DNA from: a virus
Lineage: Duplodnaviria > Heunggongvirae > Uroviricota > Caudoviricetes
Virus record (IMG/VR): IMGVR_UViG_2713897190_000002
Reading direction: 5' to 3' (one strand)
DNA length: 38,367 nucleotides
The notes under the pieces are model-generated. The model had not been told where the DNA came from and searched no databases. It saw nothing but the letters and a program-made list of their open reading frames with translations. The translations under genes were made by a program, and so were the position numbers. Numbering within the stretch: the first letter of the stretch is position 1; each line of letters begins with the position of its first letter. This document shows positions 1 to 6,274 of the stretch, in pieces.

Positions 1-91
1 CACAACATCCGAGGACAGCAACACCCGATACTTTTTCCTGGCTTCCAGCAACGGGGTTTCTTCCTCCGTTGCATATACAGCTCACCTTTTT

Positions 92-385
92 TCACCCACG
101 ATTAACCAACAGCCAGACCAGCAGACACGCCACCACCGGCACAGCAAAATCCATCAGGCTTGCCACATCCCAAGCTCGCGGATCAAAACCGCCCCACCAC
201 GGCATATTCATTCGCTTGCCATGCCCGAACATTTCAATCCAGCGATATTCTGCCTGGGTATGTTCACGCGCAATGAAGAACGTACAACCGGCTATCGCTC
301 CGTAAGCCCAGTTTCCGGTAAAAAGACCAACCAGTATCTGCGCAGCCACAGCACAAAGCGCATGAAGTAAGGGGCTTATATCCAT
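92..385 (-). CDS. hypothetical small membrane protein (97 aa), last gene of the tail fiber cluster
   Basis: ORF with ATG start and a strong Shine-Dalgarno (AAGGAGG) upstream; two or three hydrophobic segments in the translation; no homolog recognised. Confidence 0.5.
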   Translation of the reverse strand: MDISPLLHALCAVAAQILVGLFTGNWAYGAIAGCTFFIAREHTQAEYRWIEMFGHGKRMNMPWWGGFDPRAWDVASLMDFAVPVVACLLVWLLVNRG

Positions 386-397
386 TATTTCCTCCTT

Positions 398-676
398 TCA
401 GCTCCATTCCCGAAGCGGTGTTTCCAGCTCCACGACATAATCAGAGAATACAGAAACATCAAACAAGTCATCAAGAATGCGAATGTTGACAAAATAACCG
501 TCATTCCGGACACAGACAGGTTCTCCCTCTTCTGTTACCCCTGTTTCTGTGTAGGTGAAACCAATTTCATCGACTAACAGTTTATTCTGGAGGTCTTCAT
601 CCTCCTCCCAGTCAAGAGATGACAGGAAGGCCTTAAACTGCAGTTTGTCATGAAACTTCAAAGTTAAATCTTTCAT
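398..676 (-). CDS. hypothetical acidic protein (92 aa), translationally coupled to the tail fiber gene
   Basis: ATG overlaps the stop of the upstream tail fiber ORF (ATGA arrangement); acidic translation; possibly a fiber chaperone or accessory protein, not recognised. Confidence 0.45.
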   Translation of the reverse strand: MKDLTLKFHDKLQFKAFLSSLDWEEDEDLQNKLLVDEIGFTYTETGVTEEGEPVCVRNDGYFVNIRILDDLFDVSVFSDYVVELETPLREWS

Positions 677-2733
677 ACGACCTCTTTTAATTGCCTGTCA
701 TTTAATTCTTTATGCCATATGCGGAAATTGCGAATATGGCCAAACAGATGTCGTTCTCCAGTATTCGTCTGCCCTCCAAATCGGATATTTTTATCAGCGG
801 TCACACCATTATATTCACAATAAACTTCATTAACCGCTTTACCATTTGTCACCACATGAAAGTGACCATCAGCTTTTGCAATACATCCAAATGTGGTTTT
901 CTCTGCAAATACATCTGTCGCTGCGCTATTAACATACAAGCCTGAAGGGTTTGACAGACTCATATATAACTTACCACTACCTCTGTTGATTGCTGCAATT
1001 GCTGATTGCCCGGTATTGGCTGCTGCTATATCCCACACGCGGGGTGCGGCGTTTGGTGCAATATCCCAGTTTTTATGAATCTCAAGTAAAAAAGTAAATG
1101 GTAACTTATAAAGATTATTTCTGGTGGGGATACTAACCAAATCACTGGCTCTTGTCGTTGCGCTGCCTCCTGAAATAATAAATGATGATACACACGGCCC
1201 ATTCTCTACTTGTGGGGTGGCAAGATAAATATAGTCACCAGATACTGTTGCCCCACCCCGCTCAGGAGAATACTGTATCTGAGAGCCTATTTTTAACTCA
1301 CCATCAATTGCCTGAATCGTTGCCTCTGCAAAAATCCAGCCTGTGGTCTTATCCTTCCTGACTCGTGCCGTAATTCTGCCGGCAGCCCCACCTGTCATAT
1401 TAATTTCAAGCGTTTGCGTATCAATGTACGCATCGCCAAGAAAAGTTGTTGCACTACCATCATACTTATCAAACCGTATACGTAACCTTACCTGTCGTTC
1501 TGTTTTAAAACGGCATGAGGTTGTCACGTACTTGTTATCGCCTGAGACATCAACTGACTTTGTTGCAGCAATTGATGCCATATTAATAGCCGAAGTTTGC
1601 CCAACCAGAGAATCGTTGCAGACAAACTTTCCATAAGTAAAACCAAAACTATCTGTCCCGGTTTCGGGCACATCCATGTTTGATGACTTCCCCCAGCTGG
1701 CTGGACTTTCCGAATTGAGCATGTAGTTCGTTCTTTGTCCCTCAATAAGCAGGCCATCACACTCAAATCGCGGCTCATTAATTTCCGCCGTTTTCAGTTC
1801 GCCAGATTTGTTGATATATGTTGCCGTTGATGCGCGACTGAAATTAACCTGTTTATCACTGGCGACCTGAACCACATCGTCACCAATAGCTATTTTTTTA
1901 TAGCCCGGAGAAAAACCCGCAATCATATCCAGTGAATCGTTAAACGGTATCCACACATCAGGCAGCGGCGGCACTATATTCGCATAGGGCTCTGCAGTCA
2001 CTTCCGCTGCGACTTCTGCGCGGTCTGCCGCCTTTTCAGCCCGTGTCGCTGCCGACAGAGCCTCATCCTTTTTCTGCCCGGCCTTTGTTGCGTCTGCTGC
2101 GGCCTCCCGCGCTTTTGTGGTGGCGACTCCGGCATTTTCAGCGGCTGACTCTGCATTACGGCGGGAAGCCTCTTCACTGTCTGCGGAGGCTTCTTCTGAC
2201 GCACGGGCATTTGTCTCTGAACGTTCTGCCGCTGTTGCTGCGTTTTGTGCGGCTGTTTTTGAAGAAGCTGCCGCTTTCGCGCTGTTACCTGCATTCGTCT
2301 CTGATGTTTTCGCCGCATTCCTGGACGATGCCGCTGCTGTTTCTGATTTCTTTGCTGCCGCTGCGCTCTGAGAGGCGGCTTCAGCGTTGCGTGCCACCTC
2401 TTCCACCATCTTTTCAAAACGATACAGTGCCTCCGGACGAACATCATCTTCTGTTGCAGCGCCCAGAAAATCATTCAATGTCCCCGGCTTAGAATCCTCA
2501 TACACGGTGATGGCCCCGGCATGTGAAGGCGGAAAACCTTCAACCAGCAGGATAACGCTGTACTGGCCATACTCGACATCCATGCTGTAACGTCCGGCTT
2601 CATCCGGATTTTCTGAGGCCACCGTGTTCACCACAACCGTGGTGCTGTTACGTTTTGCTTTGAGCTGAATGGTGCAGTTCTGTATCGGTTTTCCTGCACC
2701 GTCTTTCAGCACGCCTGAAATCTGTACTGCCAT
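673..2733 (-). CDS. tail fiber protein with Ala/Ser-rich repeat region
   Basis: Long ORF directly downstream of J; N-terminus MAVQISGVLKDGAGKPIQNCTIQLKA resembles lambdoid prophage tail fiber proteins; long Ala-rich low-complexity stretch. Start set at the internal ATG with GGAG upstream; the track ORF begins 2 codons earlier at GTG (2739). Confidence 0.8.
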   Translation of the reverse strand: MAVQISGVLKDGAGKPIQNCTIQLKAKRNSTTVVVNTVASENPDEAGRYSMDVEYGQYSVILLVEGFPPSHAGAITVYEDSKPGTLNDFLGAATEDDVRPEALYRFEKMVEEVARNAEAASQSAAAAKKSETAAASSRNAAKTSETNAGNSAKAAASSKTAAQNAATAAERSETNARASEEASADSEEASRRNAESAAENAGVATTKAREAAADATKAGQKKDEALSAATRAEKAADRAEVAAEVTAEPYANIVPPLPDVWIPFNDSLDMIAGFSPGYKKIAIGDDVVQVASDKQVNFSRASTATYINKSGELKTAEINEPRFECDGLLIEGQRTNYMLNSESPASWGKSSNMDVPETGTDSFGFTYGKFVCNDSLVGQTSAINMASIAATKSVDVSGDNKYVTTSCRFKTERQVRLRIRFDKYDGSATTFLGDAYIDTQTLEINMTGGAAGRITARVRKDKTTGWIFAEATIQAIDGELKIGSQIQYSPERGGATVSGDYIYLATPQVENGPCVSSFIISGGSATTRASDLVSIPTRNNLYKLPFTFLLEIHKNWDIAPNAAPRVWDIAAANTGQSAIAAINRGSGKLYMSLSNPSGLYVNSAATDVFAEKTTFGCIAKADGHFHVVTNGKAVNEVYCEYNGVTADKNIRFGGQTNTGERHLFGHIRNFRIWHKELNDRQLKEVV

Positions 2734-2744
2734 ATTCACTCCAC

Positions 2745-2791: not shown

Positions 2792-5700
2792 TCAACTGAT
2801 ACTGATACCGGCTGTAGATTTCTTCATCACAACAACAAGAAGGTCGCTGATACTGGTCGTTGGCGTCCAGTTATTAGCACCATATGAAGAAACATTGAAA
2901 GTCAGGGTGACATGGCCGTGTCCGGCAGGCATATCAATGACTGATGAAAATACCCTGCTGACATCCGTCGCGGGTTGCTGAAAGATTTCCTGTCCGTTCT
3001 TCAGTACCTGCAGCTTACAGGTTGAATACCAGTATGACTGTTGGTTGTTGCTGTTGAAGTTTTCATGCTTACCCCCACGAAACAGAACGGGGGGGACTAC
3101 TATCTGACGGTCAAAAGCCTGGTCATCGTACACAGTGACCGTTATTGTACCGCTGGCATAACTGCCATTTCTCGGAAAGGCTTTTCCCACCGTTTTGACA
3201 ATATCACCTTCAATCTGGTTAGCTGACAGTTTTCCCAGAATCCGACAGTTCTGATTAATCGTGACGTTGTTGAGCGTCCCGGAGTTCGCGTTCACGTTAC
3301 CGCTGATATCCGCATTTTTCGCAGAAAGTCGACCATCAGGTGTCAGTGAAAACGTTGGGGGATTGCCACCGCTGGTAATGGTGGGAGCCGTCAGATATTT
3401 CAGGAACACTTCGTTCATGAATATCTGATCGCCCTGCCCAACAAACATCGGCTTTGTGTTGCCATTCGCAGGATTAATCATCGCAATCCTGTCCGCCGCC
3501 AGCAGCACCTGACTCTGCATACCGTCAGGAGTATTCTCAACACCGGCACCAATACCCGCGATATAAAGGCGTCCGTCCTGCATCTGCTGCAGCTTCACAG
3601 CCCACATGCTGTTCAGGTTATTATTTGTATCAACCTGAACCTTCTGTATCTGCTGGATCGCTGCACTCTGGTCTTCCAGTTTCTTATTGACGGTCTGCGT
3701 GATTTCATTGCTGACACCCGTAATGGACGTCCTGATTTCAGCCAGGTCAGGCGCAAGCTGACCGTTATCAATCTGCGTCCACAACTCCTGAGCCAGATGG
3801 GTTTTCCCTATCTCTCCTTTGAAAAAATTCAGATAGCCGGATGCATCATCACTCGGCTGGCCAACAGCCTCCACAAATGCCGATTTGCCAACGGTGTTCA
3901 CACTGCGGATGTAAAAATAATAATCATGGCCCGGTTTGATATTGATACTGGCGGCTATCCAGTACAGCGCCGTGCCAAGATAGCGTGCTGTGGTTTCAAC
4001 CTGCCTGATATCCGCAATCCGCTTTTCCGAGAACCAGAACTCAAACTGTACCGTCGGATCATAAACCGCAAGATGCGGCGTGGCGGTTATCTGAAAATAC
4101 CCCGGTGTCAGCTCAATCTGCGACGGCGCTGCCGGTGCGGCAATCCGGAACGATACCGATGCCGGATCGCCCTGCTGCCCCCACGCATTTACCGCCCGGA
4201 CTGTCAGCCTGTAGTTCCCCAGCGCCAGTTGCCTGAAGCGGTATGTGGTTTCCGTCGTCCGGGCCGTGCTGACCAGCCGCTCACTGCCGTCATCCGCTGC
4301 CACGGTCAGGCGAAGCATAAAGCTCACCCCCTTCACCACCTTCGGCGTGTCCCAGCGCGCCAGCACCTGATATTCCCCGCTGTCTGCGGTGACTTCGGCA
4401 GTCAGGTGCTGCACCGCTGGCGGCGTGACACCATTCACCGTGCCGCTCTGGTCGCCGTCAAAGTGCGCCCCGTTATCCACGATGGCCTCTTTTTCCGGTA
4501 CATGCTGCACGGCAGTGATGGCATACGTGCCGTCATCGTTCTCACGGATACTCACACAGCGGAACAGGCGCTGGCGCAACGTTGGCAACTTCAGCCCCCA
4601 CACGCTGTATTCTGCAACGCCGTCAGGAACACGGCTCACTTTTACCTTCACGCCGTCGGTGACGGACTGGACCTCCACGCTGACCGGATTCCCCTGTCCG
4701 TCAGCCAGGCTTATCAGCGTGGTGCCGGAGGATGGCAGCGTGATTTCACGGTCGAGCGTCAGTGTCCGCGTCTGGTTGTTCACCGCCAGCACGCGCCCGC
4801 CGATGCTGATCCCCGCATAGTCATCATCACAGATTTCAATGACATCGCCCGGTACATGGCGAAGCCCTTCTGCACCCACGCTGAAGTCCACGGTCTGCGT
4901 TTCCAGCAGCTCCGTTTTAATCAGCCACAGCCCGGCGCGGTGTGCCTGCCCCCGGCTGGTACAGCCAAAGGCATCCATCTTCGTGACGTTACGACCGTAA
5001 CGGGCAATGGCCTGCGTGTCCTCCACAAGCTCTGTCGCCGTCTCCCAGCCGTTATCCGGGTCAATCCAGTTCACCTCAACGGCATTATGGCGGTCTTTCA
5101 GGGCGCTGAAGCTGTAGCGGAACGGCGCGCCATCATCCGGCATCACCACATTACTGCGGTTATAGGTCCACACCTTATCCGACGGTCGGTCCTGCACGAA
5201 TGTCAGCGTCTGCCCGTTCCATACCGGCATACAGCGCATCGCCGAGCAAAAATCACTGAGCACATCCCACGCCTTGCGCTGTGTGGTCAGGTACGCATTA
5301 CAGGTGATGCGCGGCTCCGTGCCGCCAAAGCCGTCCGGCACTGACTGGTCGCAATTCTGGCCGATGACATACAGCGCCCATTTATCCACATCTGCCGCAC
5401 CAAGACGTTTCCCCATGCCGTAGCGCGGATGGGTCAGCATATCCCACAGACACCAGGCCATGTTGTTGCTGTATGCTGGCTTAAACGTTCCGTCCCAGAT
5501 ACCGCTGTATTGCCGCGTCTGCGGGTTATAGTTCGACGGCACCTGCAGAATGCGCCCGCGAAGATGATAATTACGGCTCACCTGCTGGCTGCCGAACTGC
5601 TCCGAGTCCACCTGTACGCCGACCAGTGCCGTGTTCGGGTAGCACTGTTTCACATCGATGATTTCGGTGTATGACGACCAGAGCGTTTTGTTCTGCAACT

Positions 5701-6274
5701 GGTCTGTGGTGCTGTCCGGCGTCATCCTGCGCATCCGGATATTAAACGGGCGCGGCGGCAGGTTATCCACCACCACCGAGGCCAGATACTGCGACGTGGT
5801 TTTGCCCTTAATGGTGATGTCTTTTTCCGTCACCCAGCCACCGTTACGTTGAATCTGAACCAGCAGGCGGACTTCCGATGGATTCCTGTCCCCCTTTGAG
5901 GTGGTTTCCACCAGTGCCTGCACGCCGAAAGTAAAACGCAGACGGTCAATGTTTGCCGACGTGATGGTCCGGGTGATCGGCGTGTCATATTTCACTTCTG
6001 TACCGAGCACCGTCTCGGAGCCGGAGGATTCAAATCCCTCCGGCGGTGTCTGCTCCTGCTCACCGGCCCGGAACACCACCGTGACGCCGAATATATTGGT
6101 ATTCCCCTCACTGTCCAGCACCGGCGTACTGTTCAGCAGCACGCTTTTTAATCCATCCACCGGACCTTCAACCGGCCCTTCGCTGATGGCGTCTATCACG
6201 CTCAGCATCTGGGATGATTTCAGGTTGTCCTTCGCTTCGCGCGGGGTATGCCCCTTACTGCTGCCTTTACCCAT
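2792..6274 (-). CDS. J: tail tip host specificity protein J
   Basis: 1160 aa; N-terminus [20 protein letters not shown] and long internal stretches match lambda gpJ as recalled; position after I matches lambda order. Confidence 0.95.

What the first reader, a model, noticed from the sequence alone, without database searches (positions are those of the whole stretch)
92..676. Two small coupled genes downstream of the tail fiber gene (acidic protein plus small membrane protein)
The tail fiber gene ends in an ATGA overlap with a 92-aa acidic ORF, followed by a 97-aa membrane protein with a near-perfect Shine-Dalgarno. The position is where tail fiber chaperones (Tfa) or lom-type cargo usually sit, but both proteins are much smaller than Tfa and I recognise neither. 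A third ORF starts at about position 74 and runs off the window.
Basis: seen in the sequence. Interest (0 to 1): 0.4.

Follow-up and report, generated by a model that had tools for sequence, protein, structure and literature searches.

The report
Fibre partner gene plus membrane-protein gene
Two small genes of unknown function follow the side tail fibre gene of coliphage 21: the first always accompanies this kind of fibre tip and probably helps it assemble, and the second encodes a separate small membrane protein that many phages carry next to their receptor-binding genes.

Summary
The window is Escherichia phage 21, 100% identical. Both ORFs are real, conserved genes, annotated CPT_21_23 and CPT_21_24. 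They match no Pfam, NCBIfam, PADLOC or PDB family.

gp23 (398-676, minus strand, 92 aa, pI 4.1) overlaps the stf stop codon. Its family always directly follows a fibre whose C-terminal ~430 aa resemble phage 21 Stf 255-688. That region is related to the RcGTA head-spike fibre and ends in a weakly matching LamG-like domain. The pairing holds in lambdoid, T5-like, Queuovirinae, rV5-like and Mu-like phages, including 79 of 80 remote viral loci. In rV5-like phages the alternative fibre allele carries an intramolecular S74 chaperone domain and no small gene. I therefore read gp23 as a fibre-module-specific accessory, most likely an assembly factor acting in trans.

gp24 (92-385, minus strand, 97 aa, three helices) is separable from gp23. 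Its family is strongly conserved across Proteobacteria. It sits directly after the tailspike in a P22-like phage and after the tail fibre assembly gene in a P2-like phage, and it is a chromosomal gene in Aeromonas. Its function is unknown; I guess it acts on the envelope or on phage entry.

The "third ORF" is a 25-32 codon artefact lying over a tfa 3' remnant.

The parts
673..2739 (-). Side tail fibre gene stf (phage 21 gp22, CPT_21_22). It has an N-terminal phage_tail_N anchor, an Ala-rich shaft, and a distal module at residues 255-688.
   Evidence: ORF. Pfam phage_tail_N at residues 3-133, E 1e-68; weak Laminin_G_3 at 562-683, 23.9 bits, below the 27.6-bit cutoff. NCBIfam GTA_spike_fiber domain at 331-531, 55 bits against a cutoff of 36. 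GenBank annotation 'side tail fiber'.
673..1977 (-). Distal fibre module 'StfC' (Stf residues 255-688). This is the unit that travels together with gp23. It contains a region homologous to the RcGTA head-spike fibre Rcc01080 and a C-terminal LamG/ConA-like part.
   Evidence: PDB sequence match to 6tb9_F3 (Rcc01080), E 6.5e-10. 54% identical to the C-terminus of an unrelated 704-aa prophage protein. Matched in all 79 upstream proteins of the remote gp23 loci. 228 phage records carry it.
398..676 (-). gp23 (CPT_21_23): a 92-aa acidic cytoplasmic alpha/beta protein, the cognate accessory of the StfC module. It belongs to PHROG 1361/18574. Conserved features include an MKDLxLKF N-terminus, a G(Y/W)(F/H)VN(I/L)R motif and a PxRxW(A/S) C-terminus.
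386..397 (-). gp23-gp24 intergenic spacer holding the Shine-Dalgarno AAGGAGG, 5 nt before the gp24 ATG.
   Evidence: Read directly from the sequence. Annotated as an RBS in OL657228.
92..385 (-). gp24 (CPT_21_24): a 97-aa small inner-membrane protein with helices at 4-23, 26-52 and 74-96. Its conserved central segment reads AREHTQAEYRWI..FG.GKR.NMPWWGGFD. It belongs to PHROG 1443, function unknown.
   Evidence: ORF. PHROG match. 577 homologue clusters. Alignment A2 with 26 invariant columns. AlphaFold2 pLDDT 92. Genomic contexts.
1..72 (-). Remnant of the 3' end of a tail fibre assembly (tfa) gene. One frame reads ..LEARKKYRVLLSSDVV.
   Evidence: RefSeq annotates the homologous stretch as a tfa pseudogene missing its N-terminus. 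ORF list of the full phage sequence. IS009 alignment covers window 66-2.

Best explanation
The two genes are the last genes of the phage 21 late (tail) operon and do two different jobs.

(1) gp23 is the dedicated partner of the distal module of the side tail fibre (Stf 255-688). That module contains a glycan-binding domain related to the RcGTA head-spike fibre, followed by a LamG-like end. gp23 is made by translational coupling to the fibre. It is a small acidic cytoplasmic alpha/beta protein. I infer that it binds the nascent fibre module and is needed for its folding, oligomerisation or maturation. In that role it would be a chaperone acting in trans, doing the job that an intramolecular Peptidase_S74 chaperone domain does in alternative fibre alleles. 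The obligate genetic linkage and the allele-swap pattern are shown. Binding and chaperone activity are inferred.

(2) gp24 is an independently mobile, strongly conserved three-helix inner-membrane protein that phages of all three tail types carry immediately 3' of their receptor-binding gene cassette. I infer that it acts in the cell envelope of the infected or lysogenic cell, by excluding incoming phage or by altering a receptor or envelope pathway, and not on the fibre itself. Its conservation, distribution and position are shown. Its activity is a guess.
For: Identity and reality of the genes:
- The region is 100% identical to phage 21.
- Both genes are under purifying selection.

gp23 linkage to the fibre module:
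- Every close homologue directly follows a StfC-type C-terminus. This holds even in a prophage whose fibre has a different N-terminus and a different genomic setting.
- In 79 of 80 remote viral loci the gp23-like ATG overlaps by 1 or 4 nt the stop of an upstream gene. All 79 upstream proteins match Stf at roughly residues 230-686.
- One such locus is a Mu-like baseplate cluster.
- The same pair occurs in T5-like, Queuovirinae and rV5-like virulent phages.

Allele swap:
- The CarlMeissner lateral fibre is 91% identical to rV5 gp41 for about 1050 aa. rV5 then ends in a Peptidase_S74 chaperone domain with no small gene after it. CarlMeissner ends in a StfC module followed by a gp23-like gene.
- Short homologues that lack the C-terminal part, RcapMu58 and RcGTA Rcc01080, have no gp23-like gene.

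The fibre module:
- It is homologous to RcGTA Rcc01080, which binds capsule polysaccharide (PMC10218006, PMC5026251, PMC7296036).
- It is a mass-spectrometry-confirmed virion protein in phage mar004NP2 (PMC6563131).

gp24:
- 577 clusters, about 60% identical between E. coli phage and Comamonas or Aeromonas homologues, with 26 invariant columns.
- It lies directly after the tailspike and before int in P22-like JEP4, where the annotated CDSs overlap by 4 nt.
- It lies after the tail fibre assembly gene and before the sheath gene in P2-like phiHAP-1.
- It lies after fibre or J-like genes in Comamonas, Leclercia and Acidovorax prophages.
- It is chromosomal, with no phage genes nearby, in Aeromonas.
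- It is absent from 79 of 80 remote gp23 loci.
Against: - gp23 divergence tracks the conserved proximal part of the module (Stf 255-350, Spearman 0.75) better than the variable middle (0.47) or the C-terminal part (0.55). Classical Tfa chaperones co-vary with the fibre tip, so this is a different pattern. It is equally compatible with a constant structural adaptor.
- The LamG-like beta-sandwich and the RcGTA head fibre, reported as a single subunit per spike (PMC7296036), may not need a trimerisation chaperone.
- In several lineages gp23 is followed by a second, S74-type fibre, which fits an adaptor role.
- For gp24, no promoter-like site lies just upstream. Only three sites were found in the 3 kb scanned, against 3.7 expected by chance. 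Its start is coupled to late genes, so expression from the prophage is unproven.
- gp24 co-occurs with StfC plus a remote gp23-like gene in Comamonas, Pantoea and Chelativorans prophages, so some functional tie to the fibre module is not excluded.
Confidence: 0.5

Rival explanations
1. gp23 is a structural virion protein. In this reading it is a constant adaptor or cap that stays bound to the conserved proximal part of the distal fibre module, and may serve as the docking site for a second, branched S74-type fibre.
For: gp23 co-varies best with the conserved Stf 255-350 segment and not with the variable tip. In T5-like, Queuovirinae and several lambdoid loci the next gene is an S74-type fibre. 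The strictly conserved N- and C-termini suggest fixed docking contacts.
Against: gp23 is kept where no second fibre follows: in phage 21 itself, in the Mu-like loci and in rV5-like phages. It was not among the virion proteins detected in mar004NP2 although its fibre partner was. That proteome held only 8 proteins, so this is weak evidence (PMC6563131).
Confidence: 0.25
2. gp23 is an inhibitor or immunity-like protein. It would mask an enzymatic or sugar-binding activity of the fibre's C-terminal domain inside the producing cell, as in toxin C-terminus plus immunity gene pairs.
Confidence: 0.07
3. gp23 and gp24 form one two-component cassette, for example a soluble plus membrane exclusion, abortive-infection or toxin-antitoxin pair, as their tight coupling suggests.
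For: The genes are 12 nt apart with a strong Shine-Dalgarno. They co-occur in at least 1126 of 5426 complete E. coli genomes. StfC, a gp23-like gene and gp24 also occur together in Comamonas, Pantoea and Chelativorans prophages.
Against: Only 1 of 80 remote gp23 loci has gp24. T5-like, Queuovirinae, rV5-like and Mu-like phages have gp23 without gp24. gp24 occurs without gp23 after a tailspike, after a tfa gene and in the Aeromonas chromosome. Another gene is inserted between the two in some E. coli prophages. There are no PADLOC hits.
Confidence: 0.05
4. gp24 is a lysis-related membrane protein (holin, antiholin or regulator), or a membrane factor needed for fibre or tail assembly.
For: It has three predicted helices and is about 100 aa long. 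In a Comamonas prophage it sits just upstream of small membrane-protein genes and further ORFs that look like a lysis cassette; none of these was checked against any family library. Its start is coupled to late structural genes in three phage types.
Against: There is no Pfam or PHROG holin match. From established knowledge, phage 21 has its own well-studied lysis genes S21/R21/Rz elsewhere. gp24 lacks the charged C-terminal tail typical of holins. Its sequence conservation across Proteobacteria, about 60% identity, is unlike holins. It is a chromosomal gene with no phage genes nearby in Aeromonas. It is absent from most phages that carry the StfC fibre.
Confidence: 0.1

Closest known systems
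Tail fibre assembly chaperones encoded just 3' of the fibre gene (lambda Tfa, Mu U, P2 G, T4 gp38)
   Same: gp23 lies immediately downstream of the fibre gene, is translationally coupled to it, and is inherited as a cassette with the distal fibre module across unrelated phage backbones.
   Different: There is no sequence relationship in Pfam, NCBIfam or PHROG function. gp23 is about half the size of Tfa. Its alpha/beta fold has no solved relative. It is conserved while the fibre tip varies, where Tfa-type chaperones co-vary with the tip. Its activity is untested.
Intramolecular chaperone domain of fibres and tailspikes (Peptidase_S74; K1F endosialidase, T5 pb1)
   Same: gp23 occupies the equivalent logical position. 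In rV5-like phages the same fibre ends either in an S74 domain with no small gene, or in a StfC module followed by a gp23-like gene. T5-like phages show the same alternative.
   Different: gp23 is a separate polypeptide. It has no S74 match and there is no evidence of autoproteolysis. The functional equivalence is inferred from position only.
RcGTA head-spike fibre GhsB/Rcc01080 (and RcapMu gp58)
   Same: Stf residues about 299-545 are homologous to it: NCBIfam domain above cutoff, and a PDB sequence hit at E 6.5e-10. Rcc01080 mediates adsorption to capsular polysaccharide (PMC5026251, PMC10218006). The matching fibres of coliphages are lateral fibres, proposed to bind O-antigen (PMC8594841).
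   Different: The RcGTA and RcapMu proteins are about 325 aa long. They lack the C-terminal LamG-like part and have no gp23-like gene next to them. In RcGTA the fibre sits on the head, not the tail.
Accessory genes next to receptor-binding genes (Cor of phi80/N15, Llp of T5, HK97 gp15, P2 Z/fun, P22 gtrABC, Sf6 oac). This comparison is recalled from general knowledge and was not tested here.
   Same: gp24 occupies the same kinds of slots: after the fibre genes in lambdoid phages, between tailspike and int in a P22-like phage, and between the fibre assembly gene and the sheath gene in a P2-like phage. It is a small membrane protein.
   Different: gp24 matches no family in Pfam, NCBIfam or PADLOC, and in PHROGs only families of unknown function. 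It is far more conserved than typical exclusion proteins and is also a chromosomal gene in Aeromonas. Its start is coupled to late genes, with no promoter-like site just upstream. No phenotype is known.

Membership tests
Tfa-type tail fibre assembly proteins (Pfam Caudo_TAP and relatives) | Sequence membership in the family | tested here: not met
   gp23 and gp24 have no Pfam-A match at E<=1 apart from noise (LUD_dom, PhoR). NCBIfam gives nothing. The PHROG families matched (1361, 18574, 1443, 34165) are all 'unknown function'.
Tfa-type tail fibre assembly proteins (Pfam Caudo_TAP and relatives) | Gene immediately 3' of the fibre gene and inherited together with the fibre's distal module | tested here: met
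   For gp23: ATGA overlap; 12 of 12 close loci and 79 of 80 remote loci paired with a StfC-type protein; allele swap in rV5-like phages. For gp24 this is not met, because it occurs without this fibre.
Tfa-type tail fibre assembly proteins (Pfam Caudo_TAP and relatives) | Binds the fibre and is required for its assembly | not testable with these tools
   This needs co-expression and pull-down, a deletion phenotype, or complex structure prediction.
Lom/Ail outer-membrane proteins | Ail_Lom / OMP beta-barrel domain and signal peptide | tested here: not met
   Neither protein matches PF06316 or PF13505. The gp23 model is alpha/beta and the gp24 model is all-helical. True Lom genes are found upstream of stf in related prophages.
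Peptidase_S74 intramolecular chaperone | S74 domain at the fibre C-terminus | tested here: not met
   Phage 21 Stf, gp23 and the StfC-type fibres of mar004NP2, KurtStettler and CarlMeissner have no PF13884 match. rV5 gp41 and the second fibres that follow gp23 do match it.
GTA head-spike fibre domain (NCBIfam NF048003; RcGTA Rcc01080). This row applies to Stf, the partner of gp23. | Domain score above the curated cutoff | tested here: met
   55.3 bits against a cutoff of 36, at residues 331-531. PDB chain 6tb9_F3, E 6.5e-10. RefSeq names the homologous E. coli proteins 'phage head spike fiber domain-containing protein'.
Holins | Membership in a holin family and a position in a lysis cassette | tested here: not met
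   gp24 matches no Pfam family above noise and only unknown-function PHROG families. In phage 21 it lies between gp23 and the convergent sitD gene, not in a lysis cassette.
Superinfection-exclusion or lysogenic-conversion membrane proteins | Blocks infection by other phages, or alters the receptor, when expressed | not testable with these tools
   Only position and the membrane prediction are compatible. There is no PADLOC hit and no independent promoter was found.
Known anti-phage defence systems (PADLOC-DB 2.0) | Match to a defence protein model | tested here: not met
   No families for gp23 or gp24 at E<=1.

The most novel reading that the evidence does not exclude
gp24 founds an unrecognised, very widespread family of inner-membrane proteins linked to receptor-binding genes. 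The region is present in about a third of complete E. coli genomes, and homologues span alpha-, beta-, gamma- and deltaproteobacteria. In this reading gp24 acts at the periplasmic face of the inner membrane, either to remodel the surface-glycan receptor pathway or to block genome entry. That would make it a new class of exclusion or conversion factor carried next to glycan-binding fibres and tailspikes. In parallel, gp23 would be a new chaperone class acting in trans that replaces the S74 intramolecular chaperone.
Probability: 0.2. Interest if true: 0.65.

Novelty: new variant of a known kind. Interest (0 to 1): 0.45.

Why it matters
The fibre module plus gp23 cassette sits in many laboratory and therapeutic coliphages: phage 21, lambda-like gut phages, T5-like phages, Queuovirinae, rV5-like phages and several BASEL collection phages. 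In every record I read the gp23 gene is annotated 'hypothetical', or not annotated at all. If gp23 is needed for this fibre type, any host-range engineering that transplants the module must carry the 92-aa gene along. The module boundaries defined here (a conserved proximal segment, variable domains, then conserved gp23) mark the natural recombination unit.

The gp23-gp24 region is found in 1913 of 5426 complete E. coli genomes, including Nissle 1917. gp24 itself is one of the most conserved small phage-borne membrane proteins with no assigned function. A role in exclusion or envelope remodelling would bear on phage-therapy resistance and prophage biology.

Tried and rejected
- Family searches (Pfam, NCBIfam, PADLOC) and PDB sequence searches with the single proteins and with the gp23 family profile gave nothing for either protein.
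- The 72-aa protein upstream of the Comamonas gp24 homologue is not a gp23 relative.
- I first read RefSeq rows as showing that gp24 follows a classical Tfa in other E. coli prophages. This was wrong: the 'tail fiber assembly protein' there is a pseudogene fragment downstream of gp24.
- The sRNA svsR of a lambdoid prophage (PMC12803456) lies at cI and is unrelated to this locus.
- The Rfam IS009 hit is explained by the tfa 3' remnant and is far below the gathering score.
- Literature searches found no study of either small gene.
- The rV5 proteomics paper could not inform on gp23, because rV5 itself carries the S74 allele without the small gene.
- Promoter and terminator scans found no independent transcription signals for gp23 or gp24.

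Full report
**What is there**

The first 800 bases of the window are 100% identical to Escherichia phage 21 (OL657228), in reverse orientation. All genes at this end lie on the minus strand. In order they are J (2792-6274), the side tail fibre gene stf (673-2739), gp23 (398-676, 92 aa) and gp24 (92-385, 97 aa).

The gp23 start and the stf stop form ATGA. Twelve bases, AAGGAGGAAATA, separate the gp23 stop from the gp24 ATG. gp23 is acidic, with pI 4.1. gp24 is hydrophobic at both ends and is modelled as three helices with pLDDT 92.

GenBank annotates the two as 'hypothetical protein' and 'putative membrane protein'. Just left of the window the phage carries the convergent sitABCD transporter operon.

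The stretch beneath it, window 1-72 on the minus strand, is a relic of the 3' end of a tail fibre assembly gene. RefSeq annotates the homologous sequence as a tfa pseudogene. One frame reads LEARKKYRVLL. This relic also explains a weak Rfam IS009 match.

**Both genes are real**

Codon comparisons with homologues show purifying selection. For gp23, dN/dS is about 0.35 against a 91%-identical copy, and dN is 0.26-0.36 where dS is saturated. For gp24, dN/dS is 0-0.23.

Neither protein matches Pfam-A, NCBIfam, PADLOC or any PDB sequence. Both match only PHROG families of unknown function.

**gp23 is tied to one type of fibre end**

A word-indexed search found only 48 clusters, all named ones from Escherichia or Shigella. 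A profile search of 1.8 billion representative proteins found a wider family of 85-110-aa proteins. They share an M(K/R)DLxL(K/R)F start, a G(Y/W)(F/H)VN(I/L)R motif and a PxRxWA end.

Stf splits into two parts:
- An N-terminal lambdoid anchor, Pfam phage_tail_N at residues 3-133, followed by an Ala-rich shaft.
- A distal module at residues 255-688.

The distal module contains the NCBIfam 'GTA head spike fiber' domain at residues 331-531, above the curated cutoff. It matches the RcGTA head-spike fibre Rcc01080 in the PDB sequence set (E 6.5e-10). It ends in a weak LamG/ConA-like match that falls below the Pfam cutoff. Rcc01080 mediates adsorption of RcGTA to capsular polysaccharide (PMC5026251, PMC10218006).

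Every close gp23 homologue directly follows a protein with this distal module. One example is a prophage in which a 704-aa protein with an unrelated N-terminus lies between head and tail genes. Its distal module is 54% identical to that of Stf, and its gp23 homologue is 57% identical.

Among 80 remote viral loci, 79 have the gp23-like ATG overlapping the stop of the upstream gene by 1 or 4 nt. All 79 upstream proteins match Stf at roughly residues 230-686. One of these loci is a Mu-like baseplate cluster, with the order tape measure, hub, fibre-module protein, gp23-like, hub, wedge.

The same pair occurs in several groups of virulent phages:
- T5-like phages EC100 and mar004NP2.
- Queuovirinae, for example KurtStettler and JenP1.
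- rV5-like phages, for example CarlMeissner.

All of these small genes are annotated as hypothetical. In mar004NP2 the fibre partner is a mass-spectrometry-confirmed virion protein. The small protein was not among the eight proteins detected, which is weak evidence either way (PMC6563131).

**A natural allele swap**

The CarlMeissner lateral fibre is 91% identical to rV5 gp41 over about 1050 residues, and then the two diverge.
- rV5 gp41 ends in a Peptidase_S74 intramolecular chaperone domain and is followed directly by the next tail gene.
- The CarlMeissner fibre ends in the StfC-type module, has no S74 domain, and is followed with a 1-nt overlap by a 110-aa gp23-family gene.

T5-like phages show the same alternative. 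The short homologues RcapMu58 and Rcc01080, about 325 aa and lacking the C-terminal part, have no such partner gene.

This is why I favour a module-specific assembly factor acting in trans.

**What does not fit neatly**

In 77 non-identical pairs, gp23 divergence tracks the conserved proximal segment Stf 255-350 (Spearman 0.75). It tracks the variable middle (0.47) and the C-terminal part (0.55) less well. gp23 is therefore a constant partner flanking a variable region, unlike Tfa-type chaperones. Linked genes correlate in any case, so this is only suggestive.

In several lineages the next gene after gp23 is a second, S74-type fibre. A structural adaptor role therefore remains a serious rival.

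The gp23 model (pLDDT 89) is a small alpha/beta fold with no significant solved relative.

**gp24 is a separate element**

Its family has 577 clusters. Sequence identity is about 60% between the E. coli phage protein and Comamonas or Aeromonas homologues. The alignment has 26 invariant columns, centred on AREHTQAEYRWI..FG.GKR.NMPWWGGFD. Homologues occur in gamma-, beta-, alpha- and deltaproteobacteria.

Its contexts are as follows:
- After gp23, or after gp23 plus an S74-type fibre, in E. coli lambdoid prophages.
- Directly after the tailspike and before int in the P22-like phage JEP4.
- After the tail fibre assembly gene and before the sheath gene in the P2-like phage phiHAP-1.
- After J-like, fibre or tailspike genes in Comamonas, Acidovorax and Leclercia prophages.
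- In Aeromonas, a chromosomal gene with no phage genes nearby: Pirin lies upstream and RIO1 downstream in the locus that has annotated gene calls, and similar-length upstream ORFs occur in other Aeromonas species.

Only 1 of 80 remote gp23 loci also has gp24. Five non-Escherichia gp24 loci do carry a StfC-like gene plus a remote gp23-like gene.

From general knowledge, the P22-like and P2-like positions are known hot spots for lysogenic-conversion or exclusion genes (gtrABC and oac; Z/fun).

Homologues tend to end in basic residues. That suggests a cytoplasmic C-terminus and a periplasmic conserved loop; this is inference.

No independent promoter or terminator was found. Fold search gave only generic helix bundles. 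The function remains unknown. My best guess is an envelope-directed accessory role, such as exclusion or receptor-pathway modification.

**Distribution**

The region is present in 1913 of 5426 complete E. coli genomes, and 1126 carry both genes. It is identical in Nissle 1917 and ATCC 11775. E. coli B carries the module in its Rac prophage next to pinR.

**Verdict**

gp23 is best seen as a new family of fibre-module accessory protein. gp24 is an unrelated, widely mobile small membrane protein. Neither function has been tested experimentally.

Noticed in passing
window 1-94, minus strand: A relic of the 3' end of a tail fibre assembly (tfa) gene lies just downstream of gp24. It gives a sub-threshold Rfam IS009 match (46 bits against a gathering score of 117) whose aligned part is the conserved tfa 3' coding sequence. 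In E. coli B the same relic abuts pinR, which suggests an old recombination joint.
   Followed up: partly
L001 2551-6000 (phage 21, immediately left of window position 1): Phage 21 carries a complete sitABCD iron/manganese ABC transporter operon, convergent with the late operon. It is followed by an icd 3' pseudogene and attP. This is metal-uptake cargo in the b region.
   Followed up: no
L143 5381-6085; L005 6341-7369; L148 5289-7019; L149 5289-6821: In many related loci a second fibre gene with a Peptidase_S74 intramolecular chaperone domain sits right after the gp23 homologue. In lambdoid prophages it lies between gp23 and gp24. In Queuovirinae it is annotated 'putative lateral tail fiber chaperone'. 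This may point to branched fibres.
   Followed up: partly
window 673-1977, minus strand: The distal part of a lambdoid side tail fibre is homologous to the head-spike fibre of the Rhodobacter gene transfer agent. RefSeq now names the E. coli homologues 'phage head spike fiber domain-containing protein', although here the domain is on a tail fibre.
   Followed up: partly
GenBank records MG065692, MG065653, MG065676, OR847733 and others: Records labelled Campylobacter phage or Listeria phage carry sequences identical or near-identical to T5-like and rV5-like coliphage genes. For example, they are 100% identical to the CarlMeissner small gene. They look like mislabelled or contaminant assemblies.
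   Followed up: no
L039 3526-5587 (Chelativorans prophage): The gene order here appears to be fibre-module gene, then gp24 homologue, then a remote gp23-like gene. This is the reverse of the phage 21 order.
   Followed up: no
L153 2417-2680 (Aeromonas jumbo phage AVP1); L154 about 2501-2662 (phage HC6, unannotated): Partial homologues of the conserved central segment of gp24 occur in jumbo Aeromonas phages and as unannotated small ORFs in some virulent coliphages and Salmonella phages. The segment is therefore not restricted to temperate phages.
   Followed up: no
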